A stretch of 64,000 nt of DNA from Staphylococcus sp. CAG:324 (GTDB lineage Bacteria; Bacillota_I; Bacilli_A; ML615J-28; CAG-313): positions 5,443-69,442 of the forward strand of contig FR890814.1 in the NCBI GenBank assembly GCA_000433035.1, given 5' to 3'. Both the position numbers and the translations under genes were made by a program. Position 1 is the stretch's first letter. Each line of letters begins with the position of its first letter. Below, piece by piece: positions 11,412 through 46,706 of the stretch. Under the pieces are notes generated by a model. It saw only the letters and a list, made by a program, of their open reading frames with translations, made no database searches and was not told where the DNA came from.

Positions 11412-13049
11412 TTATTTTTTATCGTCTTCTTCAATATTATTATTTTTTTCTTGACTATAGATTATGGCATGGTGAATAAATTCACTAAATAAAGCATGTG
11501 CTCGATTCGGTCTTGAACTAAATTCTGGATGAAATTGACAAGCAATAAACCATGGATGATTTTTAAGTTCAACTATTTCAACCAATCCAGTTTCAGGATT
11601 TATCCCACTTACAATCATGCCGGCATTTTGAATTCTATCCAAATATTTATTATTAAATTCATATCGATGGCGATGGCGCTCTTTAATGACAGTCTGCTTA
11701 TAAGCTTCAAATGCTTTTGTATTCTCTTTTAAAAGACAATCATATGCTCCTAGCCTTAAAGTTCCACCTAAATTAATTCCTGTATATTGATCAGGCAAAT
11801 AGTCAATGATGGGGTTAGTTGTGTTTTCACATAACTCTGTTGAATCAGCATCGCTTATTCCCAAAACATTTCTAGCAAACTCAATAGTTGCTAGTTGCAT
11901 ACCAAGACAAATACCTAAAAAAGGAATATTATTTTCTCTAGCAAATTTAATCGCTTGAATTTTACCATCAATTCCTCTAGGACCAAATCCTCCAGGTACT
12001 AAGATTCCATCACAGTCTTTCAAATAATTTTCAACATTATCTTCAGTTACATCATCTGCTAAAATCCAATTGATATTTATCTTTTTGCCATACCTATATC
12101 CTGCATGTTTTAATGCTTCATTGATAGATAAATAAGCATCCTGTAATTGAACATACTTACCAACAAGAGCAATATTTACTTCACCTGACAATTTTTTTAT
12201 TGTTCTAATTAAATTATTCCATTCTATCATATTTGGTGCTTCTGTTTCAAGTCTAAAAAAATCACATATATACTGATCAGCACCTTGATTATAAAGATTA
12301 TTAGCAACTTCATATAGTATCTTCACATCTTTTGAAACAACTACTGCTTTTTTATCCACATCACAAAAAGATGAAATTTTCTCTCTTAATTCATCATTAA
12401 TATCAACCTCTGATCTCAATACTAGCATATCAGGTTGAATACCAAGTGATCTAAGTTCTTTTACGCTATGTTGAGTAGGCTTCGTTTTTAACTCCGATGC
12501 TGCTTTAACAAAAGGAATTAAAGTAGTATGAACATAAAAAGTATTATTATATCCAACATCTCTTCTCCACTGTCTAATTGCCTCTAAAAATGGTAAAGAT
12601 TCAATATCACCAACAGTTCCTCCAATTTCAGTAATGATAACATCAGCCTTAGAGGTTGTAGCTGCCGATAAAAGTCTTGCTTTAATTTCATTGGTAATAT
12701 GAGGAATTACTTGAACGGTTTTACCAAGGTAATCTCCAGATCTTTCCTTATTAATAACTGCCTGATAAATTTTACCAGAAGTAACACAAGATTCCTTTGT
12801 CAAATCCTCATCAATAAATCTTTCATAATGTCCTAAATCTAAATCAGTTTCAGCCCCGTCAACTGTAACATATACTTCTCCATGTTGATAAGGACTCATT
12901 GTTCCTGGATCAATATTAATATATGGATCAAATTTTTGCATAAAAACTTTCAATCCACGATTTTTTAACAATCTTCCTAACGATGAGGCAACAATTCCCT
13001 TGCCAAGACTAGAAACTACTCCACCTGTTACAAATATATATTTTGCCAT
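11412..13049 (-). CDS. pyrG: CTP synthase.
   Basis: [20 protein letters not shown]-terminus and the glutamine amidotransferase GICLGMQ motif. The start was moved to the second ATG, which has a GGTGA RBS. Confidence 0.9.
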
Positions 13050-36753: not shown

Positions 36754-36801
36754 ATTTAAACCAAACTCTCAAAAAGGTTCTAGGAGGAACCTTTTTTGAT
36801 T
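36720..36801. repeat. Left copy of an 82-bp direct repeat, comprising the last 34 nt of the yjcZ-like CDS plus its bidirectional terminator (AAAAAGGTTC-taggag-GAACCTTTTT).
   Basis: It matches 45378-45459 at 81 of 82 positions. Confidence 0.8.
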
Positions 36802-38537
36802 TATATTTTATCACTAATCTTTTTTAACATATTGTTAAAAGTAGAATTTTTTCGTTCTCTTAATTGTTTTATAGTTCCATACTCAATAATTTTACCATCA
36901 TTCATTACAATTACTTTGTCACAATTTAAAATATTATAAATACGATGAGAAGTAATCAACATTATTTTATCATTCATTTTATATAATTTACTTAATATAT
37001 CTTTTTCATTTGTTACATCTAGTGCTGAGGTGATTTCATCTAATAAAAATAATTTAGCATTTTTGTATATTGCATTTGCAATATTAATACGTTGAATTTC
37101 ACCACCTGATAAATTATCCTCATAATTTGAAATTTTTGTTTTATCTTTTTCTGGCAAACTTTCAATTAAATTATTTAATTTAGCCTCTTCTATACTTTTT
37201 TGATAATTTTTTTCATCAAATTCAAGTGGATAAATAATATTATCCCTTATACTAACATTAAATAATTTTAAATCTTGTTGTACATATGCAATATTATTTC
37301 TCAAAGAAAATAAACTAATTTTATTTAAATCTATATTATTAATAAGAATTTGTCCTTCATTAGGAATTATGATTCTAGTTATTAAATCAAAAAGTGTTGT
37401 TTTCCCTCCTCCAGACATTCCTACTATACCTAATTTTTCTCCTTTTTCAACTTTAAAATTTAATTTTTTTACTTCGAACAATCCATCACCATATTTAAAA
37501 CTTACATCAATAAATTCAATACTATAGATATCGTCTATATTAATACCATCATATATATTTGTTTCTGGTTCTATGCTATAAATTTCATCCAGCTTTTCCA
37601 TAGAATTTTTTATAATTTTTGAAGAAATATTTACATTTAATAGCACTCTAAAAGAGCTATAAATTTTAGGTATTATTGTTAAAAAAGATATTAATATACC
37701 AGTTGTTATAGTACTAAAATCTTTTATAATATACCATATTCCAATAAAAATTATTACAATATACATTATATTTATTATTAAATCTCCCATTATAAATCTA
37801 TTTAAGCTATGAGTAATTGAAGTCTTTTTTTTATGCTTATAAAGGCTATCAAGCCATAAATTAAATTTTTCATTTTCCTTTTGGTGGCCATTTGTTATTT
37901 TAATTTTTTTTATTCTTTTGCATGAAGTCAAAATTAATTCTTGACCACTTTCTAAAATCTCAATATATTCTTTATCATTTTTTTTACTAATCTTGGAAAT
38001 AAATTTAGCTAAAAAATAAAATAGAGGAAATAAAGCAAAAATAATTATTGCAAATTTTTTATCAATTTTAATCATTGTTATAACAACAATTAATAAAAAT
38101 ATACTTTCAGAAAAAAAGCCAACAATATCATTTACAAAATAAACTTCTCCAATCTTCCCTGTTTCTCTAGTTATTCTTGACATAACCTGAGAATCACTAT
38201 ATTTATTTATTTTTAAATATTTTGCATTTAATACACACTCAAAAGCAGTCCTTCTCAATGATGAAGTAATATAATTACCAAGCTTAGTTGATAAAAATGT
38301 TTTAAAAATATCTAATAATAATAACGATAATGATATACTAATCATTTTAATTATTATTATTATTAACAAATTTACATCTTTATTAGGAACTACTTTATCT
38401 ATGATATCTACTATTATTAATGAATTCTTTAATTTTAAATAGGAAATTGCTATCATTAAAATTATTAATATTATTATTATAAATATTTGTTTTTTTGTAC
38501 AATTTACAAGTATTTTATGTGTATTAATTGTTTTCAT
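36801..38537 (-). CDS. ABC transporter with fused permease and ATPase domains (lasso peptide D-type exporter; RiPP export and immunity).
   Basis: N-terminal 6-TM domain. Walker A GMSGGGKTT, signature LSGGE and Walker B LLDEITSALD. Its stop codon abuts the direct repeat. Confidence 0.75.
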   Translation of the reverse strand: MKTINTHKILVNCTKKQIFIIIILIILMIAISYLKLKNSLIIVDIIDKVVPNKDVNLLIIIIIKMISISLSLLLLDIFKTFLSTKLGNYITSSLRRTAFECVLNAKYLKINKYSDSQVMSRITRETGKIGEVYFVNDIVGFFSESIFLLIVVITMIKIDKKFAIIIFALFPLFYFLAKFISKISKKNDKEYIEILESGQELILTSCKRIKKIKITNGHQKENEKFNLWLDSLYKHKKKTSITHSLNRFIMGDLIINIMYIVIIFIGIWYIIKDFSTITTGILISFLTIIPKIYSSFRVLLNVNISSKIIKNSMEKLDEIYSIEPETNIYDGINIDDIYSIEFIDVSFKYGDGLFEVKKLNFKVEKGEKLGIVGMSGGGKTTLFDLITRIIIPNEGQILINNIDLNKISLFSLRNNIAYVQQDLKLFNVSIRDNIIYPLEFDEKNYQKSIEEAKLNNLIESLPEKDKTKISNYEDNLSGGEIQRINIANAIYKNAKLFLLDEITSALDVTNEKDILSKLYKMNDKIMLITSHRIYNILNCDKVIVMNDGKIIEYGTIKQLRERKNSTFNNMLKKISDKI

Positions 38538-39852
38538 TTGTATACCTCTTGTTAAAAATAGTATATTTTAGATTATAATCTATATCATTTTTTTTATAAT
38601 TTATATTTAAATTACTATTATTTAATTTCTCTATCATATAAAACTTTAATATTTTAAAAACAAGTTGGCACCAATTATAATTAAAATCATTAGTATTATC
38701 ATATATTGCTTTACAACCACCTCCACAATGATAAAATGCAAAACATTTATTACAATTTTTTAATTTATCATTATTATTTTTTACTATATTATTAACATTA
38801 TTATTATCTATTTCTATAGTTTTATTTATCTCCCCTATTTTATATAAATTATTTTTTGAATTTTTATCAAATTGAATGCAAGATGTTAAAAATCCATTTG
38901 GATGACAATATATTGTATTTAACGAAGTTCCTTTACAATATCCATTTAATCTCAATTCTTCACCTATAAAAGATTTAGCTCTTTCTTTTAGTACTTTTCT
39001 AGCATCTTTATATATATTTAAATATTCATCATTACTAATAGTATTTATAAAATTATTTCCATCAATAGTAGGAACATATCTTGTAAACTGAACTGATGAT
39101 AATTTTGGAACATTATTTAAAAAAAATTTAGCAATTTTTTCACCAAATCCAATTGATTTATTGGTTAATACTGTATTAAAACTAACTTTGCAATTATTTT
39201 CAGAAATGTATCTAGCATTTTTAATTACTATCATTGTAATGTCCTTACCAGATATACTCTGCCTAGTAAAACCATTTATTTCTGAAGGTCCATCAATTGA
39301 AAAACATACTTCATTAAAATTTTCACTTAACCATTTAGCTTGATTTATACTAAAAAAACCATTTGTTATTATTCTTTTCAAACAAAGAGTATTATTTTCT
39401 TTGCATTTTTTTATTGCATATTGAATAAATCTTTTTAATAATGAAAAATTATATGTTGGCTCACCACCGCCATGAAAAGTTAAGTCAATCCATGGAGTTT
39501 TTTTATTAATAATTTTAGCATTATTTATTAATATATTTACTATTTTTTTATATTTATTAAAACTTAGAAAACTATTATTACAATTAGTGCCAGAAGATGA
39601 ATAACAATATTTACACTTTAACATACATTTGTTACTTATAATTATTGTAGCAGAATTCCCATAATATTTATTCCCTATTATCAATCTAGTTTTGCTATTA
39701 AATTTATTAATTGTTCTACAACCTAAATACTTAAAAACTATATTATTTATATCTTCTATATCCAAATCATTTGCTTCTATTACTAAATCATATTTTGGAA
39801 CATAATAAAATTTTTCCAATTTAAATACATTTAACACATTTTTTTCCTCCAT
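38524..39852 (-). CDS. Radical SAM enzyme with a C-terminal SPASM domain (RiPP maturase).
   Basis: CMLKCKYC is a Cx3Cx2C motif. The C-terminal Cys cluster is CKGTSLNTIYCHPNGFLTSC...CNKCFAFYHCGGGCKAIY. The ~70-aa N-terminal extension may be an RRE. Confidence 0.75.
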   Translation of the reverse strand: MEEKNVLNVFKLEKFYYVPKYDLVIEANDLDIEDINNIVFKYLGCRTINKFNSKTRLIIGNKYYGNSATIIISNKCMLKCKYCYSSSGTNCNNSFLSFNKYKKIVNILINNAKIINKKTPWIDLTFHGGGEPTYNFSLLKRFIQYAIKKCKENNTLCLKRIITNGFFSINQAKWLSENFNEVCFSIDGPSEINGFTRQSISGKDITMIVIKNARYISENNCKVSFNTVLTNKSIGFGEKIAKFFLNNVPKLSSVQFTRYVPTIDGNNFINTISNDEYLNIYKDARKVLKERAKSFIGEELRLNGYCKGTSLNTIYCHPNGFLTSCIQFDKNSKNNLYKIGEINKTIEIDNNNVNNIVKNNNDKLKNCNKCFAFYHCGGGCKAIYDNTNDFNYNWCQLVFKILKFYMIEKLNNSNLNINYKKNDIDYNLKYTIFNKRYTNENN

Positions 39853-39865
39853 TTAAAACTATAAG

Positions 39866-39884
39866 GGAGGATTAATACCTCCCA
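39866..39884 (-). promoter_or_regulatory. GC-rich intercistronic stem-loop GGGAGG-uauuaau-CCUCCC between the precursor and rSAM genes.
   Basis: 6-bp G/C stem in otherwise ~20 % GC DNA. Only a weak U-tract follows, suggesting a partial terminator or processing/stability element of the kind common after RiPP precursor genes. Confidence 0.4.
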
Positions 39885-39902
39885 CTTTGATAAACGTATT
39901 AA

Positions 39903-40016
39903 TTAAGCACATTTATCATAACCATAACCATCATCATTATCTTTTCCAGTTGAACCAGTTAATTCAAACATATCACCTAAAATAATATATGATGGCTTTT
40001 CATAATTATTATTCAT
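39903..40016 (-). CDS. Lasso peptide precursor of 37 aa: MNNNYEKPSYIILGDMFELTG | STGKDNDDGYGYDKCA.
   Basis: RBS AAAGGAGGTG lies 7 nt upstream. The leader matches YxxPxLx3Gx5Tx (Y5, P8, G14, T20; only L is replaced by Y), with the penultimate leader residue Thr. The core begins with Ser, has Asp at positions 7 and 8 for isopeptide formation, and has bulky Tyr in the tail. This is the only sizeable intergenic gap in the operon. Confidence 0.6.
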   Translation of the reverse strand: MNNNYEKPSYIILGDMFELTGSTGKDNDDGYGYDKCA

Positions 40017-40031
40017 TATTGACACCTCCTT

Positions 40032-41468
40032 TCAGACTTTTAATACGGGAAACCTTGATATTTCAATAAATTGCTTTTTTATTATATTAGAATCAGTAAT
40101 AACTATTTCATCTATTTCTACCCATGAATGAAATTCGAATAAATTAGTAATATGATACGAAGATTTACCAATTACGACTTGAGATGGAATTCCAATAGTA
40201 ATTAGTGCTGTACACAAAGATATTGATCTTTCTAAGCATAGCATACCTTCATTATTTTCTTTACCAATCTTACGTAAAATCGGAATAATTTTACTAACAT
40301 AATTACAAAAATCAATACTAGAATAGTTTAAAGTGTTTTGTTCAATTAAATATTTATTTTTATGAAACAAAGTATTTATTAGTTTTATAGCATAAGAAAC
40401 CCCTTTTTTATGAATTAATGAAATAGATTTTATATAATTTCTAGTCATATGTTCAAAATCCGTAGAATTTATTTCAAAAGAATTTTTGACCAATTCTTCG
40501 TTATACAAAAGAGTCATTAATTTATCATAACAAAATGTTTCATTTATATCCATATATAATTGGTTAACATTACATACATTTGGATAATTAACTATATATT
40601 TATCAACATTATTAGCTAAATTAATTAACAAATTTATTTTCTTGTTTAAAAATGGACTCAATATATTTGTTTGATAATTTAAAATATTTTTTATAAAATT
40701 ATAATTATTCAATAATTCTATTTGATATATATTATTTTTTTTAGTTCCTAAAATTATAACTTTACTTAATTTTATAGTATTTTGATATTGTATATTTTGG
40801 AAATAATATTTTTTACTTTTTGTTAATAAAACACTATCAAAATCTATTGGTTGCTTATCTAAACTTTTTTTTATTCCAATACCAACATTAATTCCTTGAC
40901 AATTCAATTGTTTATCTATTATACAAAAAACATCATCACTCAAAATTTCATAATTATATTTATTATTTAATTCTATAGATATTGATGTCTTACCATACCC
41001 AGACTTTCCCAACAACGCTACTCCTTCATTTGTTGTTTTATTAACCAATAATGCTCCATGAAAAATTATTTTGTTATTTTCTAAAAACGCAATGGATAAT
41101 GGATCTAAAAAATACTGAAAAAACATATTTCTTTTATTATATATTTTTTTTATATAGAAAATAAACTTTTTTTTCAAAAATAACCATTTTGCATAACTTC
41201 CATCTTTATAAAAAATATTATATTCTTGATTGTTTTTATCATAAATAAAACTACCAATTAATAATTCATATTTAATTCCTTTCTTATGAATTTTGGGTAT
41301 ATAATTATTATCAAAATTATATTCAAATATGTAACTTTCCTTATTTGCTATATGATTATTTTTACAATTTGAACCTAAAATATTGAATATAAAATTTGTA
41401 TTTTCTAAATCATTCGTTTTTATTTCAAAATTTTCACCAAATACATTAAATTTTAGTATATCATTCAT
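40032..41468 (-). CDS. Fusion protein with an N-terminal HPr-kinase-like (HprK C-terminal domain) kinase and a C-terminal lasso B2 transglutaminase-like leader peptidase.
   Basis: The kinase part reads FHGALLV...GVALLGKSGYGKTSISIEL...ILSDDVFCI, which follows the HprK P-loop pattern HG.lv..G.G.L..G.SG.GKSE.aLEL....L..DD. The peptidase part reads EGMLCLERSISLCTALITIGIPSQVVIGKSS...FEFHSWVEIDEIVITD, giving a Cys-His-Asp triad as in McjB-type B2. Confidence 0.6.
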   Translation of the reverse strand: MNDILKFNVFGENFEIKTNDLENTNFIFNILGSNCKNNHIANKESYIFEYNFDNNYIPKIHKKGIKYELLIGSFIYDKNNQEYNIFYKDGSYAKWLFLKKKFIFYIKKIYNKRNMFFQYFLDPLSIAFLENNKIIFHGALLVNKTTNEGVALLGKSGYGKTSISIELNNKYNYEILSDDVFCIIDKQLNCQGINVGIGIKKSLDKQPIDFDSVLLTKSKKYYFQNIQYQNTIKLSKVIILGTKKNNIYQIELLNNYNFIKNILNYQTNILSPFLNKKINLLINLANNVDKYIVNYPNVCNVNQLYMDINETFCYDKLMTLLYNEELVKNSFEINSTDFEHMTRNYIKSISLIHKKGVSYAIKLINTLFHKNKYLIEQNTLNYSSIDFCNYVSKIIPILRKIGKENNEGMLCLERSISLCTALITIGIPSQVVIGKSSYHITNLFEFHSWVEIDEIVITDSNIIKKQFIEISRFPVLKV

Positions 41469-41721
41469 TTATCAATATTCCAATACTTATCATACTATTA
41501 ACAAATTCGTTGTAATCTTTTTCAATTATACTTGTATCTATATTATATTTTTCTTTCATAAATTGAATAATTTCAAACGAAGTTTTTCCCTTTTTTATTA
41601 AATCTAAAATACAATAACTTGTATAATTTATAGAAATAAATTGTCCATTATTTAAATTAGTAATAATTGCTTCTTCATCTATTAAAGTAATATCAACATT
41701 TTTAGATATATTTAATTTCAT
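41461..41721 (-). CDS. Lasso B1 protein (PqqD-like RiPP recognition element).
   Basis: At 86 aa it fits a PqqD-family fold (TSFEIIQFMKEKYNIDTSIIEKDYNEFVNSMISIGIL). It overlaps both neighbouring genes. Confidence 0.65.
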   Translation of the reverse strand: MKLNISKNVDITLIDEEAIITNLNNGQFISINYTSYCILDLIKKGKTSFEIIQFMKEKYNIDTSIIEKDYNEFVNSMISIGILINE

Positions 41722-43258
41722 AATTTTCCTCCATCTTTTTTAACCAATTAAAAACCAATATTGTATCTATTATTAAAAATTTATATTTTATTATTTCATT
41801 TTTATTATTTAATATTTTATCTATAACTTTAAAATCAAAGAAACAAGAAAAATTACTTTTCTTAATTTGATTTATTTTATAAATTATTTTATCAATTGAA
41901 TTAAATAATAATTTTTCACTTAAAACTCCATAACAACTTTTTGAATTTCTTGAAATTATAGAAAAAGGTATATTTTCTTTAAAAGCAAATTTTAAAATAG
42001 GTTTAGCAATGATTTTTCCACCATAAGGTAATGCTTTATAAATTTTAGGAATACTATTTGAGAAAGATATTAAATCTTTATCTATATATGGATTTATATC
42101 TATTACATTATATTTATTAGCTAAATATAATCTCATTGCTTCTCTTTGTAATAAAACCGCATATAGTCTTTGATTATTTGACTTAACATTTTCACATTTA
42201 ATAAATGTTTTTTTTCCTTCTATTTGTTCATTTATAACATATGGAACATCTATAAATTCTACAATTCCATTTAAATGATTTAAATACGATTTTTTAAAAA
42301 AACTACTAACATTTATAAATATTTTATCGTCATTAAATCTTTGTAAATATCCTCCAAAAATTCCATCACCATTTAATCCACTTAAAATATACTTTATATT
42401 TTTTTCTTTCATAAATTGGTAGGTTTTATCCCACCAATAAATACTTGTATGAATAAATGGATATATAATATTTTCATTTAATAATAAATATTCATCTATA
42501 TTATTAATTTTATCAGACATATCAATAAATATTAATTGAATATTATATCTTTTACAAAACTCTACTGCAAAATTACTTTCATCCACTTGATAATATTTAT
42601 TTGATGTCCAATGTATACAAATAAAGTCTTTCTTTAATAAATATAAACAATAAGCAATTACAATAGAATCTATTCCACCACTCATTGAAACACAAATTTT
42701 ACTATTTATTCCTTTTGTTCTTTTTTCTACTGACTTAATAACCAATTTTTTTGCTTCTTTTACGTAATCATTAAAAGTATATAAATTATATTTTATATCC
42801 TTTTCAATACAATTTTGATAAAGTATCTTTAATTTATTATTATCTATTGATACTAAAGTTCCATAATCTATTAATTTTATATTATTAAAAGGAAAAAAAT
42901 AATTTCTTTGTATAATTCCTAATATAGCTTGTTTATCAATTTCAATTATTTCTTTTTTTAAATATAAATTATAGTAATCATCTGTTACTAACAGCATATT
43001 ATTTATATTTTTATAATATAATATGACATTTGATGTATTGGATATATATATATAATCTAAACCTCTATAATTAAAAATTAAAATACAGTCTCCATCAATT
43101 TCTTGAAATTTAATACCATTATCTATAAATAAAAGAATTTTTTCAATAATATTTTTAATATCATCAAATATTCTTCCTAATACAATTATTTTGATTAAAT
43201 TATTATGAACTTTAATCTGATATTCTTCCTTATATGTTTTAGTAATTATAATTTTCAT
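41702..43258 (-). CDS. Lasso cyclase C (asparagine synthetase B-like, ATP-dependent macrolactam synthetase).
   Basis: PP-loop SMSGGIDS. Size and neighbourhood fit. Confidence 0.65.
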   Translation of the reverse strand: MKIIITKTYKEEYQIKVHNNLIKIIVLGRIFDDIKNIIEKILLFIDNGIKFQEIDGDCILIFNYRGLDYIYISNTSNVILYYKNINNMLLVTDDYYNLYLKKEIIEIDKQAILGIIQRNYFFPFNNIKLIDYGTLVSIDNNKLKILYQNCIEKDIKYNLYTFNDYVKEAKKLVIKSVEKRTKGINSKICVSMSGGIDSIVIAYCLYLLKKDFICIHWTSNKYYQVDESNFAVEFCKRYNIQLIFIDMSDKINNIDEYLLLNENIIYPFIHTSIYWWDKTYQFMKEKNIKYILSGLNGDGIFGGYLQRFNDDKIFINVSSFFKKSYLNHLNGIVEFIDVPYVINEQIEGKKTFIKCENVKSNNQRLYAVLLQREAMRLYLANKYNVIDINPYIDKDLISFSNSIPKIYKALPYGGKIIAKPILKFAFKENIPFSIISRNSKSCYGVLSEKLLFNSIDKIIYKINQIKKSNFSCFFDFKVIDKILNNKNEIIKYKFLIIDTILVFNWLKKMEENYEIKYI

Positions 43259-43274
43259 AATTAATACCTACATT

Positions 43275-44759
43275 TTATTTTATCAATAATGGTTTTCTAT
43301 AATATGGCTGTATACAAAAACATTTAAAAATAGAATTATTTTTTAATTTATACAAATACATATTAAATCCAATATTTCTATTTATATCTAAATAATGAGG
43401 AAATTTATTTAAATCAATTATTAAAGTTGTTTCTACTAATCCATTCTTAATTTTAACTATTTCATCAATATACCCATAATAAAATTCCTTTTCTTTTTCA
43501 TAATCATATAAAGAATTAAATGTTGGTGCATAAAATAAACTTTTTATTATATTATTATTTATCATACGTAAAGTTATAGGTATATATGGATCTATAAATT
43601 CACCAGTTTTTCTATATCCAAATATATTTAAATGAATTACCATATTTTCTTCCATTCTAGGTTTTATTTGTATATATAAAAGATTATCTTTTTTTATGTA
43701 TTTAAAATCAGTTATTATATTGTTGTAAAATACTAAATGATGAGGTAATACCTTATTTCTTTTTGTAAAATTAAAATAACCTAAATAATATTTTTCAAAA
43801 TATTTAATTAATTCTAAATTATTAAAAAATCTATCAAATATAGCCAAATTATCTAATAAATCATCATTATCTTTAATTTTATTTTTTAATAACTTTTTAC
43901 ATTTCAATAAAATAGTTTTATCATTAAAAATATAACTTAACTCTAAAAATATTTTGGATACCATTTTTAATGAAACATTATTATAACGTAAAATAAAAAT
44001 TATTTCATGATAGTCAAAATAAATAAAATATTTTTTTATGTACAAATATAAATCAATTGCATATTGTAAATTTATTTTTTTTTGATTTCTTAAAAACTCT
44101 ATATTTCTTGTAAACTCTAAATAATATATAATTAAACAACAAAATGTTTCATTTAAATTAAATGTTTTTACATTATTAGATAATATTTCTATTTGATTAA
44201 TTGTTTTTATTAGAGGTTTATACAAATGAAATTTTGTTTTTAATTCAATAGTAATAACTTGTTTTTTATATATTACTAATATCTTTTTTTCTCCACAAAT
44301 TTCAATTGTTTTATTCCTTATATCTTTAAATTTTTTAAATTTATTTCTAACTAAATCTACAAACTTTTCCTCTTCATCATTACTAATAATAATATCTATA
44401 TCATCAAACTGTCTTATATTATGTAAATCATATATTAATTTTTCTAAAATTATTCCTTTATAAAGGATATAATTTATATGGTTTTCTTCAAGTAGCTTTA
44501 TTAATTCAATAAATACTTCATTATATATATTTTTTTTTACTAATAAATATTTTTTTATACTATGAATTTTATTTGCAATATTTAAAAATTTTTTAATATT
44601 TAATAATTTAGAATAAAACCTTAAAAATATTTTTTGATTATATAATAATCTTAGCACTTCCTGACAATCAATGTCTGCAAAATAATCATTTTCTAGATTT
44701 TCATTCCTTATTAAACTTACTATAAATTTTTCTTCTTTTTTTATAATTTTTTCCTCCAT
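43275..44759 (-). CDS. Putative nucleotidyltransferase (NTP_transf_5-like) of the kind found in Firmicute kinase-associated lasso clusters.
   Basis: YKGIILEKLIYDLHNIRQFDDIDIIIS is a GS/hG...D.D-type nucleotidyltransferase motif. Confidence 0.45.
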   Translation of the reverse strand: MEEKIIKKEEKFIVSLIRNENLENDYFADIDCQEVLRLLYNQKIFLRFYSKLLNIKKFLNIANKIHSIKKYLLVKKNIYNEVFIELIKLLEENHINYILYKGIILEKLIYDLHNIRQFDDIDIIISNDEEEKFVDLVRNKFKKFKDIRNKTIEICGEKKILVIYKKQVITIELKTKFHLYKPLIKTINQIEILSNNVKTFNLNETFCCLIIYYLEFTRNIEFLRNQKKINLQYAIDLYLYIKKYFIYFDYHEIIFILRYNNVSLKMVSKIFLELSYIFNDKTILLKCKKLLKNKIKDNDDLLDNLAIFDRFFNNLELIKYFEKYYLGYFNFTKRNKVLPHHLVFYNNIITDFKYIKKDNLLYIQIKPRMEENMVIHLNIFGYRKTGEFIDPYIPITLRMINNNIIKSLFYAPTFNSLYDYEKEKEFYYGYIDEIVKIKNGLVETTLIIDLNKFPHYLDINRNIGFNMYLYKLKNNSIFKCFCIQPYYRKPLLIK

Positions 44760-44782
44760 TAAAATATTTTAAATATAAAATT

Positions 44783-45259
44783 TTATAATAAAAATTCACA
44801 TAATGTTTGATTATTATAATCCCCATAATAATAATCTATCAATTCTAAAGATTTTCCATTTATTTTAAATAACTCTAAATTAATATTTTTTTGTGAAATA
44901 TTTTTAAAAAATTCTATATCTTTTTTTACTATTTTTTGAATTTCTAATTGTTTTATATATGAATTTATAGTAAACTCACTTAAACTTTTAGACAAATTTA
45001 AACTTTCAATTTCATAACAATATTCCATTGAATCATAATTTATTGGCATACTATTGGTAACAAATATATTATTATTATCATTTCTAATTATTATTGGGTA
45101 ATTGCAATTATAATTATCTATAAAATTAATAAATAAAATATAATTAATAAAAGTGATTTGGTTATCAAAAAAGCAATTGATTATTAATTTTTCATTTTTT
45201 AAAATAATTTGTATTTTAATATCTCTTACTTTAGTATTAATAATTTTTTTAGATTCCAT
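44783..45259 (-). CDS. Hypothetical protein of 158 aa, the first gene of the island operon.
   Basis: Intact ORF with a GGAGG RBS. Confidence 0.35.
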   Translation of the reverse strand: MESKKIINTKVRDIKIQIILKNEKLIINCFFDNQITFINYILFINFIDNYNCNYPIIIRNDNNNIFVTNSMPINYDSMEYCYEIESLNLSKSLSEFTINSYIKQLEIQKIVKKDIEFFKNISQKNINLELFKINGKSLELIDYYYGDYNNQTLCEFLL

Positions 45260-45302
45260 AAATACTTAACCTCCATTATATATTTAAATAATTTTCGATT
45301 TT

Positions 45303-46127: not shown

Positions 46128-46706
46128 ATGATTTTAATGAAAGATATTATTAAAGAAGGAAATCCTATCCTTCGTCAAAAATGCCTTGATGTAGAACTTC
46201 CTTTAAAAGAGGCCGATGAAAAAATAATTCAAACTATGATTGAGTATTTGATAAACTCTCAAGATGATGAACTTGCTAAAAAATACAATTTAAGACCTGG
46301 CGTAGGTCTTGCGGCACCCCAAATTGGAATAAATAAAAACATGTTGGTTATTTTAGCCTATGATGAAGATGGTAACTTTCATTTTTACCCAATGATTAAT
46401 CCAAAACTTTTAAGTTACTCTGAAGAAAAAACTTATTTAGAAGGTGGTGAAGGATGTCTTTCGGTTGATCGCGAGGTCAATGGATATGTGCATAGAGCTA
46501 AACGAGTCACTGTCGAAACAAATTTATATAATCACGGAAACCTTGTTCACACAAGGTTACGACTTAAAAACTATATCTCAGTTGTTTTTCAACATGAATA
46601 CGATCATTTAAACGGCATCTTATTTGTAGATCGTATTAATCACCAAAATCCTTTTGAAATTTTGCCTAATTCAACTGCAGTCAAATTTAAAAATGATGAT
46701 GAATAG
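46128..46706 (+). CDS. def: Peptide deformylase.
   Basis: GVGLAAPQIG, EGCLSV and QHEYDHLNG motifs. Confidence 0.85.
   Translation: MILMKDIIKEGNPILRQKCLDVELPLKEADEKIIQTMIEYLINSQDDELAKKYNLRPGVGLAAPQIGINKNMLVILAYDEDGNFHFYPMINPKLLSYSEEKTYLEGGEGCLSVDREVNGYVHRAKRVTVETNLYNHGNLVHTRLRLKNYISVVFQHEYDHLNGILFVDRINHQNPFEILPNSTAVKFKNDDE

What the first reader, a model, noticed from the sequence alone, without database searches (positions are those of the whole stretch)
40032..41468. HprK-like kinase domain fused in-frame to the lasso B2 leader peptidase
The N-terminal ~300 aa carry the HPr kinase C-terminal-domain P-loop (GKSGYGKTS, then ELNN...LSDD). The last ~130 aa carry the transglutaminase-core Cys/His/Asp triad of lasso leader peptidases.

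A single polypeptide coupling precursor phosphorylation to leader removal has not, to my knowledge, been characterised. The precursor has no C-terminal Ser, so the phospho-acceptor must differ from paeninodin-type systems.
Basis: partly seen in the sequence, partly recalled or inferred. Interest (0 to 1): 0.7.

Follow-up and report, generated by a model that had tools for sequence, protein, structure and literature searches.

The report
Lasso kinase fused to leader peptidase
In a lasso-peptide gene cluster of a common human-gut bacterium, two genes that relatives keep separate, a peptide kinase and the leader-cutting protease, have merged end to end into one real 478-residue protein; this is a new arrangement of known parts rather than a new kind of enzyme.

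Summary

The fusion is not a sequencing artefact. The identical protein is indexed in 1528 blocks of public assemblies. It appears unique: an exhaustive HMMER scan of 1.84 billion representatives returned only stand-alone kinases (272-338 aa) and proteins matching only the B2 part, mostly ~130-200 aa. Six syntenic lineages keep K and B2 as separate adjacent genes, spaced -14 to +34 nt. In one of them a single in-frame stop separates the two.

The lack of a C-terminal Ser is real, but it has precedent: BsfK and LppK phosphorylate Ser3 of the core, and B1 serves both K and B2. The only conserved hydroxyl residue in the core is Ser1, next to the cleavage site. I infer it is the acceptor; this is untested.

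Verdict: a new domain architecture of known components, of moderate interest. The cluster's conserved radical-SAM maturase, paired with a C-terminal DxCA motif, may be the more novel feature.

The parts
40032..41468 (-). K-B2 fusion gene, 478 aa plus stop. Its start codon overlaps the stop of B1 (ATGAATGA).
   Evidence: The identical protein is found on 788 contigs and in 1528 collection blocks.
40539..41468 (-). Kinase (K) domain, aa 1-310, with the PEPCK/HprK-like P-loop fold. Catalytic residues: H137 (41058-41060), P-loop G154-S162 (40983-41009), K160, D178-D179 (40932-40937).
40035..40523 (-). B2 leader-peptidase domain, aa 316-478. Triad: C411 (40236-40238), H447 (40128-40130), D459 (40092-40094).
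41461..41721 (-). B1, a discrete PqqD-type RiPP recognition element of 86 aa.
   Evidence: Pfam PqqD, E 2.4e-10.
41702..43258 (-). Lasso cyclase C, an asparagine-synthase homologue of 518 aa.
   Evidence: Pfam Asn_synthase, E 1.3e-16. NCBIfam lasso cyclase model hit, below its cutoff.
43275..44759 (-). N, an NTP_transf_5 nucleotidyltransferase of 494 aa. It is present in all nine K-linked lineages examined.
   Evidence: Pfam PF14907, E 1.4e-11. Gene tables.
39903..40016 (-). Precursor peptide A, 37 aa. The leader has Y(-17)xxP(-14) and T(-2). The predicted core is STGKDNDDGYGYDKCA.
   Evidence: RBS AGGAGG. The gene caller finds 37 aa in L011. Alignment of ten related precursors.
39865..39883 (-). 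Terminator-like hairpin (GGGAGG-tattaat-CCTCCC followed by a T-run) directly after the precursor gene.
38524..39852 (-). Radical SAM/SPASM peptide maturase of 442 aa.
   Evidence: Pfam Radical_SAM. Best NCBIfam hits are PapB and SCIFF thioether maturases plus the SPASM domain. Orthologues occur in six lineages.
36801..38537 (-). D, an ABC exporter of 578 aa.
   Evidence: Pfam ABC_membrane and ABC_tran.
44783..45259 (-). First ORF of the low-GC island, 158 aa, with no family match and unknown role.
   Evidence: No tblastn match in the related loci.

Best explanation
The gene encodes a genuine bifunctional lasso-peptide maturation enzyme. It arose when two adjacent genes, K (lasso-precursor kinase) and B2 (leader peptidase), merged end to end with no linker and no loss of either domain.

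It sits in a cluster ordered N, C, B1, K-B2, A, rSAM, D, inside a low-GC island of a human-gut member of the Bacilli (NCBI name 'Staphylococcus sp. CAG:324').

Proposed mechanism:
1. B1 binds the Y(-17)xxP(-14) leader of the precursor. (Inferred from the motif and from known systems.)
2. The K domain, a PEPCK/HprK-fold P-loop kinase with the catalytic H137, K160, D178 and D179, transfers phosphate from NTP to a hydroxyl group of the still-linear precursor. (Inferred.) The most likely acceptor is core Ser1, the only hydroxyl residue conserved across all K-linked precursors and the residue immediately after the scissile bond. (Inferred, weaker.)
3. The B2 domain (C411, H447, D459) cleaves after Gly(-1), guided by Thr(-2). 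(Inferred.)
4. C closes the Ser1-to-Asp7/8 macrolactam. The rSAM enzyme modifies the C-terminal Cys. N may decorate the phosphate. D exports the product. (All inferred.)

The fusion fixes a 1:1 K:B2 ratio on the shared B1-precursor complex. It may equally be a near-neutral loss of a stop codon.
For: Real gene. The identical 478-aa product appears on 788 contigs and in 1528 collection blocks, including contigs of 0.2-1 Mb, and under four NCBI accessions.

Both halves are complete. Target aa 3-305 aligns with residues 6-308 of a 319-aa stand-alone K protein. Target aa 320-476 aligns with residues 6-161 of a 164-aa stand-alone B2 protein.

Synteny. K lies immediately upstream of B2 as a separate gene in L001 (14-nt overlap), L007-9 (4-nt overlap), L017 (3-nt gap), L010 (+20), L021 (+27) and L020 (+34). 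In L021 the two are in the same frame, separated by a single stop codon.

B2 domain. Pfam Transglut_core3 is above its cutoff. Cys and His are invariant in the alignment.

Shared RRE. BsfB1 stimulates both BsfK and BsfB2 (PMC10368454).

Acceptor. All nine K-linked precursors read (E/D)LTG|S, with an aromatic residue at -17 and Pro at -14. No other hydroxyl residue is conserved in the core.

No internal start. There is no Shine-Dalgarno sequence ahead of the in-frame Met306 or Met318, whereas the neighbouring genes have strong ones.
Against: No biochemical data exist for this protein or for its subfamily.

Pfam Hpr_kinase_C (18.8 vs 33.3 bits) and NCBIfam lasso_biosyn_B2 (27.2 vs 33 bits) are both below their curated cutoffs. 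The target alone scores only 8-18 bits against fragments of characterised lasso kinases.

The Walker A motif has Thr161 where most relatives have Ser.

Conservation of Ser1 could reflect cyclase or peptidase specificity rather than kinase specificity. Characterised non-C-terminal lasso kinases act on Ser3, not Ser1.

The fused form is confined to one nearly clonal population, so there is no evidence that selection favours the fusion itself.

The full-length AlphaFold model is poor for aa 188-328, so it says nothing about how the two domains pack.
Confidence: 0.72

Rival explanations
1. The fusion is a sequencing or assembly artefact: a spurious frameshift or a lost stop codon joined two separate genes.
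For: Relatives have separate, often overlapping K and B2 genes. The region is 19% GC and rich in homopolymers, which makes it prone to indel errors.
Against: The exact 478-aa product is indexed in 1528 blocks of independent assemblies (ENA, Logan, JGI, NCBI), including 316 blocks with contigs of 0.2-1 Mb. Several single-substitution variants are also 478 aa. Both domains stay aligned to their homologues right up to the junction.
Confidence: 0.02
2. The K domain is catalytically inactive, or does not act as a peptide kinase. It would serve as a scaffold or nucleotide-binding module that helps assemble the B1/B2/C complex.
For: In another lineage the same domain is fused to the cyclase C (a 749-aa protein), and that locus has no B1 gene. 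This suggests a structural role within the synthetase. Pfam Hpr_kinase_C is below its cutoff. The precursor lacks the C-terminal Ser used in paeninodin-type systems.
Against: Every residue shown by mutagenesis to be needed in lasso kinases (His, the Walker A Gly and Lys, Ser/Thr, Asp-Asp) is invariant or conservatively kept across 33 homologues as low as 19% identical to the target (PMC10368454). Degenerate scaffolds normally lose such residues. An NTP_transf_5 gene, which in pseudomycoidin acts on the phospho-Ser, accompanies K in all nine lineages examined.
Confidence: 0.1
3. The kinase is active, but its acceptor is not Ser1. Candidates are Thr2, Tyr10 or Tyr12 of the core, a leader residue, or repeated transfer onto an existing phosphate (polyphosphorylation).
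For: BsfK and LppK are strictly specific for position 3 (PMC10368454, PMC13381572). ThcoK and SyanK polyphosphorylate (PMC9266682). The window core has Thr2, Tyr10 and Tyr12.
Against: Positions 2, 3, 10 and 12 do not keep a hydroxyl residue across the family: T/N/G/H/S/C at position 2, Gly at position 3, Y/F/W at positions 10 and 12. Only Ser1 and the leader Thr(-2) are conserved.
Confidence: 0.25
4. The fusion is a selectively neutral accident (loss of one stop codon between translationally coupled genes) with no mechanistic coupling of the two activities.
For: Only one nearly clonal lineage carries it. In L021 a single stop codon is all that separates in-frame K and B2. Artificial B1-B2 fusion or splitting does not change lasso yield in other systems (PMC5067487).
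Against: Nothing argues directly against it. It is compatible with the best explanation in every respect except the claim of a functional benefit. The K domain has fused independently to C in another lineage, which hints that physical association of K with the core enzymes is tolerated or favoured.
Confidence: 0.4

Closest known systems
BsfK / BsfB1 / BsfB2 of Bradymonas sediminis (PMC10368454)
   Same: A lasso cluster with K, N, a discrete B1, B2, C and D. The kinase carries the same H...GxxGxGK[ST]...DD motif. The precursor has no C-terminal Ser. Phosphorylation occurs near the N-terminus of the core, on the linear precursor. B1 stimulates both the kinase and the peptidase.
   Different: K and B2 are separate proteins. 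The acceptor is Ser3 and the leader has Ile(-2). There is no radical SAM gene. The organism is a proteobacterium. Sequence identity to the window kinase is low: the BsfK fragment scores 38.8 bits against the family profile and 8 bits against the target alone.
Paeninodin and pseudomycoidin kinases PadeK, ThcoK and PsmK, and the nucleotidyltransferase PsmN (PMC9266682, PMC8498205, PMC6993621)
   Same: Bacillota lasso clusters with an HprK-like kinase, an NTP_transf_5 enzyme, split B1/B2 and an ABC exporter. The His-Lys-Asp-Asp catalytic motif is shared. The family profile scores 45-53 bits on their active-site fragments.
   Different: They phosphorylate the C-terminal Ser, which is absent here. 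Their gene order is C A K B1 B2 D, not C B1 K B2 A. K is a stand-alone protein. The fusions reported there join the nucleotidyltransferase to B2, not the kinase.
Stand-alone K and B2 genes of syntenic metagenomic clusters (L001, L007-L010, L017, L020, L021)
   Same: These are orthologous clusters: C, B1, K, B2, A, with or without rSAM, plus D and N. The precursor family is the same, ELTG|SxGx(D/N)xDDG-Ar-G-Ar. K is 26-39% identical to the target by HMMER (up to 43% over a shorter tblastn segment), and B2 is up to 38% identical.
   Different: K and B2 are two genes, spaced from -14 to +34 nt. None is fused.
HPr kinase/phosphorylase (HprK/P) and PEP carboxykinase
   Different: The target is below the Pfam and TIGRFAM thresholds. 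It has no HprK/P N-terminal domain. Its genomic context is RiPP maturation, not carbon catabolite control. Over its whole 310 residues it resembles PEPCK more than HprK/P.
Cyanobactin DolG, a macrocyclase/protease with an embedded kinase domain (PMC12639078)
   Same: One polypeptide combines a RiPP-processing protease with a peptide kinase. This is the characterised precedent for the general idea.
   Different: The families are unrelated: a PKc-like kinase inside a subtilisin-like protease. That kinase acts late, on the cyclic product.

Membership tests
Lasso B2 leader peptidase (Pfam PF13471 Transglut_core3; NCBIfam NF033537) | Score above the curated family threshold. | tested here: inconclusive
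   Pfam PF13471 scores 31.2 bits against a cutoff of 26, so it is met. The domain alone scores 33.7 bits. NCBIfam NF033537 scores 27.2 bits against a cutoff of 33, so it is not met.
Lasso B2 leader peptidase | Cys-His-Asp catalytic triad. | tested here: met
   C411 and H447 align with columns that are invariant across 40 B2 sequences. D459 aligns with the majority Asp of the consensus ...FHAWVExxGxPIND.
Lasso B2 leader peptidase | Encoded together with a discrete PqqD-type B1, an Asn-synthase-like cyclase, and a precursor that has Thr(-2) and a YxxP leader. | tested here: met
Lasso B2 leader peptidase | Transglutaminase-like cysteine-protease fold. | tested here: inconclusive
Lasso-precursor kinases (PadeK, ThcoK, PsmK, BsfK) | The His...GxxGxGK[ST]...Asp-Asp motif, shown to be essential by mutagenesis. 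| tested here: met
   The target has H137, G154, G157, G159, K160, T161, D178 and D179. Apart from position 161 (Thr here, Ser in at least 90% of the others) and the nearly invariant G154 and G157, these are invariant in 33 homologues (PMC10368454, PMC9266682).
Lasso-precursor kinases | Detectable sequence homology to characterised members. | tested here: met
   The profile of the target's family scores 39-54 bits on 60-75-aa fragments of PapoK, PsmK, PadeK, ThcoK and BsfK. The target alone scores only 8-18 bits. Only partial sequences, read by machine from a supplementary figure, were available.
Lasso-precursor kinases | Phosphorylates the linear precursor peptide. | not testable with these tools
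   This needs an in vivo or in vitro assay with mass spectrometry.
Paeninodin-type subclass of lasso kinases | A C-terminal Ser of the precursor as the acceptor. | tested here: not met
   The precursor ends ...DKCA. All nine related K-linked precursors also lack a C-terminal Ser.
HPr kinase/phosphorylase (PF07475, TIGR00679) | Score above the curated threshold. | tested here: not met
   PF07475 scores 18.8 bits against 33.3. TIGR00679 scores 16.6 bits against 240.
HPr kinase/phosphorylase | The C-terminal catalytic-domain fold. | tested here: met
HPr kinase/phosphorylase | The HprK/P N-terminal domain, and HPr as the substrate. | tested here: not met
   Alignments to full-length HprK/P cover only its C-terminal domain. 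Residues 1-110 of the target align with PEPCK instead. The genomic context is a RiPP cluster.

The most novel reading that the evidence does not exclude
In this clade the kinase would be a core subunit of the lasso synthetase, not an optional tailoring enzyme. It is fused to B2 here and to the cyclase C in another lineage that has no B1 gene. It would phosphorylate Ser1, the residue whose amine forms the macrolactam, right at the cleavage site. The products would then be an undescribed class of lasso peptide from abundant human-gut Bacilli: phosphorylated at Ser1 (possibly extended further by the nucleotidyltransferase) and stapled by a radical-SAM-installed thioether from the conserved C-terminal Cys.
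Probability: 0.25. Interest if true: 0.65.

Novelty: new variant of a known kind. Interest (0 to 1): 0.38.

Why it matters
Both domains and their cooperation through B1 are already known, so the fusion by itself mainly adds a new architecture to the list of lasso B2 fusions.

Its practical value is as a naturally tethered K-B2 enzyme. It could make a poorly soluble lasso kinase/peptidase pair easier to express. It also offers a way to test whether phosphorylation and leader removal are ordered or coupled.

The wider cluster family matters more. It is common in human-gut metagenomes. It combines lasso machinery with a kinase, a nucleotidyltransferase and a radical SAM/SPASM maturase. Its precursors are conserved (ELTG|SxGxDNDDG-Ar-G-Ar-DxCA). 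I found no report of a radical-SAM-tailored lasso peptide in the searchable literature.

Tried and rejected
- Word-indexed homologue searches returned almost nothing: 1, 10 and 18 hits. In the first two, the AT-rich, low-complexity query words probably flooded the 8000-candidate limit. These searches could not provide a census of domain architectures.
- A scan of one genome per GTDB species with the target protein found no relative. The species-representative genomes evidently lack this island or this species, so I could not name the organism beyond the NCBI label.
- The single sequence gave no hit against PDB sequences. The family profile against PDB was dominated by generic Walker A hits, with HprK/P at only E 5e-4 to 0.02. 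The fold search was needed to settle the question.
- The full-length AlphaFold model is unreliable for aa 188-328, because the mixed two-family alignment was messy. I did not use it for inter-domain geometry.
- Foldseek against PDB on that model was saturated by PEPCK entries.
- The AFDB50 library was not available.
- Zhu et al. 2016 (JBC) and Tietz et al. 2017 could not be read. A K-B2 fusion mentioned only in those papers would have been missed.
- I rejected internal translation initiation of a separate B2: there is no Shine-Dalgarno sequence before Met306 or Met318.
- I rejected core numbering that starts at Gly. The aromatic(-17) and Pro(-14) register fits all ten precursors only if the core starts at Ser, and in L015 only a start at Ser places an Asp within ring range (Asp9).

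Full report
**The ORF and its cluster.** Window 41468-40032 on the minus strand is one uninterrupted ORF of 478 aa. It lies in a run of minus-strand genes:
- a 158-aa ORF with no family match
- an NTP_transf_5 nucleotidyltransferase (N, 494 aa)
- an asparagine-synthase-like lasso cyclase (C, 518 aa)
- a PqqD-type recognition element (B1, 86 aa)
- the target
- a small precursor gene (A)
- a radical SAM/SPASM maturase (442 aa)
- an ABC exporter (D, 578 aa)

The block from about 36.8 to 45.3 kb has 18-20% GC, against 27-30% in the flanks. The stop of B1 overlaps the target's start (ATGAATGA). The precursor has a strong AGGAGG site in front of an ATG at 40016. This gives the 37-aa peptide MNNNYEKPSYIILGDMFELTGSTGKDNDDGYGYDKCA. 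An independent gene caller finds the same 37 aa on another contig.

GKSGYGKTS is at aa 154-162 and LSDD at aa 176-179. CLERS starts at 411, FHSWVE at 446 and ITDSN at 457. Pfam places Hpr_kinase_C at aa 134-265 (18.8 bits, below the 33.3-bit cutoff). It places Transglut_core3 at aa 410-467 (31.2 bits, above the 26-bit cutoff). NCBIfam lasso_biosyn_B2 scores 27.2 bits, below its cutoff of 33.

**Not an artefact.** The identical 478-aa sequence is the representative of a 58-member cluster seen on 788 contigs. It has four NCBI accessions, named 'Staphylococcus sp. CAG:324' and 'Bacilli bacterium'. The encoding-contig index lists it in 1528 blocks, 316 of which hold contigs of 0.2-1 Mb. The gene neighbourhood is the same in each. 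Other full-length members differ by single substitutions only. The fusion is therefore a real allele of one nearly clonal, widespread gut lineage.

**N-terminal domain.** HMMER against 1.84 billion representative proteins returned 113 hits. About 45 are stand-alone proteins of 272-338 aa that cover query aa ~3-310.
- In an alignment of 33 of them, R113, D122, H137, S156, G159, K160, D178, D179, G196, G198, K220 and Y222 are invariant.
- AlphaFold on that alignment gives pLDDT 90.3 and pTM 0.88.
- The invariant residues match the motif H148-G163-G166-G168-K169-S170-D186-D187 of BsfK. Mutagenesis there showed that His, the first Gly, Lys, Ser and both Asp matter (PMC10368454). They also match the His-Lys-Asp-Asp motif of PadeK and ThcoK (PMC9266682).
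- I rebuilt about 95-aa fragments of eleven lasso kinases from the supplementary alignment of PMC10368454. The family profile scores 39-54 bits on PapoK, PsmK, PadeK, ThcoK and BsfK. It scores 17-23 bits on true HprK/P over the same region.

The domain therefore belongs with lasso-precursor kinases rather than with HprK/P proper. The target alone is very divergent, scoring 8-18 bits on those fragments.

**Is the fusion unique, and how did it arise?** No hit covers both halves, apart from fragments of the target itself.

In related clusters K and B2 are separate, and K always lies directly upstream of B2:

| Locus | K-to-B2 spacing |
|---|---|
| L001/L002 (K 39% identical) | 14-nt overlap |
| L007-L009 (order C-B1-K-B2-A-rSAM-D) | 4-nt overlap |
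| L017 | 3-nt gap |
| L010 | 20-nt gap |
| L021 | 27-nt gap |
| L020 | 34-nt gap |

In L021 the two genes share a reading frame and are separated by one stop codon. A single substitution there would create a fusion.

In the target the K alignment runs to aa 305-310 and the B2 alignment begins at aa 316-320. The join is therefore end to end, with no added linker and no truncation. Neither in-frame Met306 nor Met318 has a Shine-Dalgarno sequence.

A different fusion exists in L003-L006. There the cyclase C carries the K domain at its C-terminus, in a 749-aa protein. Its aa 498-749 align with target aa 58-308 at 32% identity. No PqqD gene is present on those contigs.

**The acceptor question.** Ten related precursors align as [aromatic](-17)-x-x-P(-14)...(E/D)-[L/V]-T(-2)-G(-1) | core. 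This register is the canonical lasso leader motif, so it fixes the cleavage site after Gly.
- All nine K-linked precursors start the core with Ser. No other hydroxyl position is conserved.
- None ends in Ser.
- The core is S-x-G-x-(D/N)-(N/H)-D-D-G-Ar-G-Ar in seven lineages. This fits a ring from Ser1 to Asp7 or Asp8.
- One related locus, L018, has Glu in place of Ser. Its contig is too short to tell whether K is absent.

Phosphorylation away from the C-terminus has precedent. BsfK acts on Ser3 of a precursor that ends in Asp, and BsfB1 accelerates both the kinase and the peptidase (PMC10368454). LppK also acts on Ser3 (PMC13381572). I infer that Ser1 is the acceptor here. Conservation of Ser1 could equally reflect the specificity of B2 or C.

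**Comparison with what is known.** Known B2 fusions join it to nucleotidyltransferases (PMC8498205) or to ABC transporters (PMC7533575). A kinase domain embedded in a RiPP protease has been characterised in cyanobactin DolG, which belongs to unrelated families (PMC12639078). I found no description of a K-B2 fusion in the library. However, Zhu et al. 2016 and Tietz et al. 2017 could not be read.

**Other observations.**
- An orthologous rSAM/SPASM maturase is present in six lineages. All six have precursors ending D-x-C-A(R). The three K-linked lineages without the maturase lack that ending.
- An NTP_transf_5 gene accompanies K in all nine lineages.
- A terminator-like hairpin follows the precursor gene.

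**Verdict.** It overstates the novelty of the mechanism. This is a new domain architecture of known lasso components, probably produced by loss of a stop codon between translationally coupled genes. It has modest intrinsic interest. The surrounding kinase, nucleotidyltransferase and radical-SAM lasso family is the more promising lead.

Noticed in passing
window 38524-39852 (-); also L003, L007, L010, L017, L021: A radical SAM/SPASM maturase (best NCBIfam hits are the PapB and SCIFF thioether maturases) lies next to the precursor gene. It co-occurs in 6 of 6 cases with precursors ending D-x-C-A(R). The three K-linked clusters without it (L020, L013, L015) lack that ending. This suggests a thioether or other radical cross-link from the C-terminal Cys of a lasso peptide. 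I found no paper on rSAM-tailored lasso peptides.
   Followed up: partly
L003:5735-7984 (the same gene in L004-L006): A 749-aa protein fuses the lasso cyclase C to the same kinase domain. Its aa 498-749 align with target aa 58-308 at 32% identity. No PqqD/B1 gene is present on these contigs. How the leader is recognised there is unexplained.
   Followed up: partly
window 39865-39883 (-): A terminator-like hairpin (GGGAGG-tattaat-CCTCCC followed by a T-run) lies directly after the precursor gene and before the rSAM gene. This could raise the amount of precursor transcript relative to enzyme transcripts.
   Followed up: no
window ~36800-45300: The whole cluster has 18-20% GC, against 27-30% in the flanks. 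It sits between a peptide deformylase gene (46128-46706) and the YlbD/YlbE, rpsP and KH-domain genes. A scan of GTDB species-representative genomes found no copy of the fusion gene. The cluster is therefore probably a strain-variable island.
   Followed up: partly
window 44783-45259 (-): A 158-aa ORF at the head of the cluster has no Pfam or NCBIfam match and no tblastn match in any of the related loci. Its role (immunity, regulation or something else) is unknown.
   Followed up: partly
L018:151-309: A related precursor (…EEVTG|EGGKNNDDGYRW…) has Glu where all K-linked clusters have Ser1, in a cluster ordered A-B2-C-B1. This could be a phosphomimetic substitution in a kinase-less relative. The contig is too short to show whether K is absent.
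   Followed up: no
L013:2089-2835: Four identical tandem precursor genes (core SGEIIVKGTPGSNFFGIFDYEYGPL) lie in an IS-ridden K-linked lasso cluster. The core has no Asp or Glu at positions 7-9, so the usual macrolactam ring cannot form as expected.
   Followed up: no
L007:4548-5723 and L021:2579-2860, 11414-12898: Some relatives of the cluster also carry a carrier-protein gene (PP-binding). L021 additionally carries an AMP-binding enzyme next to the nucleotidyltransferase. This hints at further acyl-type tailoring that is absent from the window.
   Followed up: no
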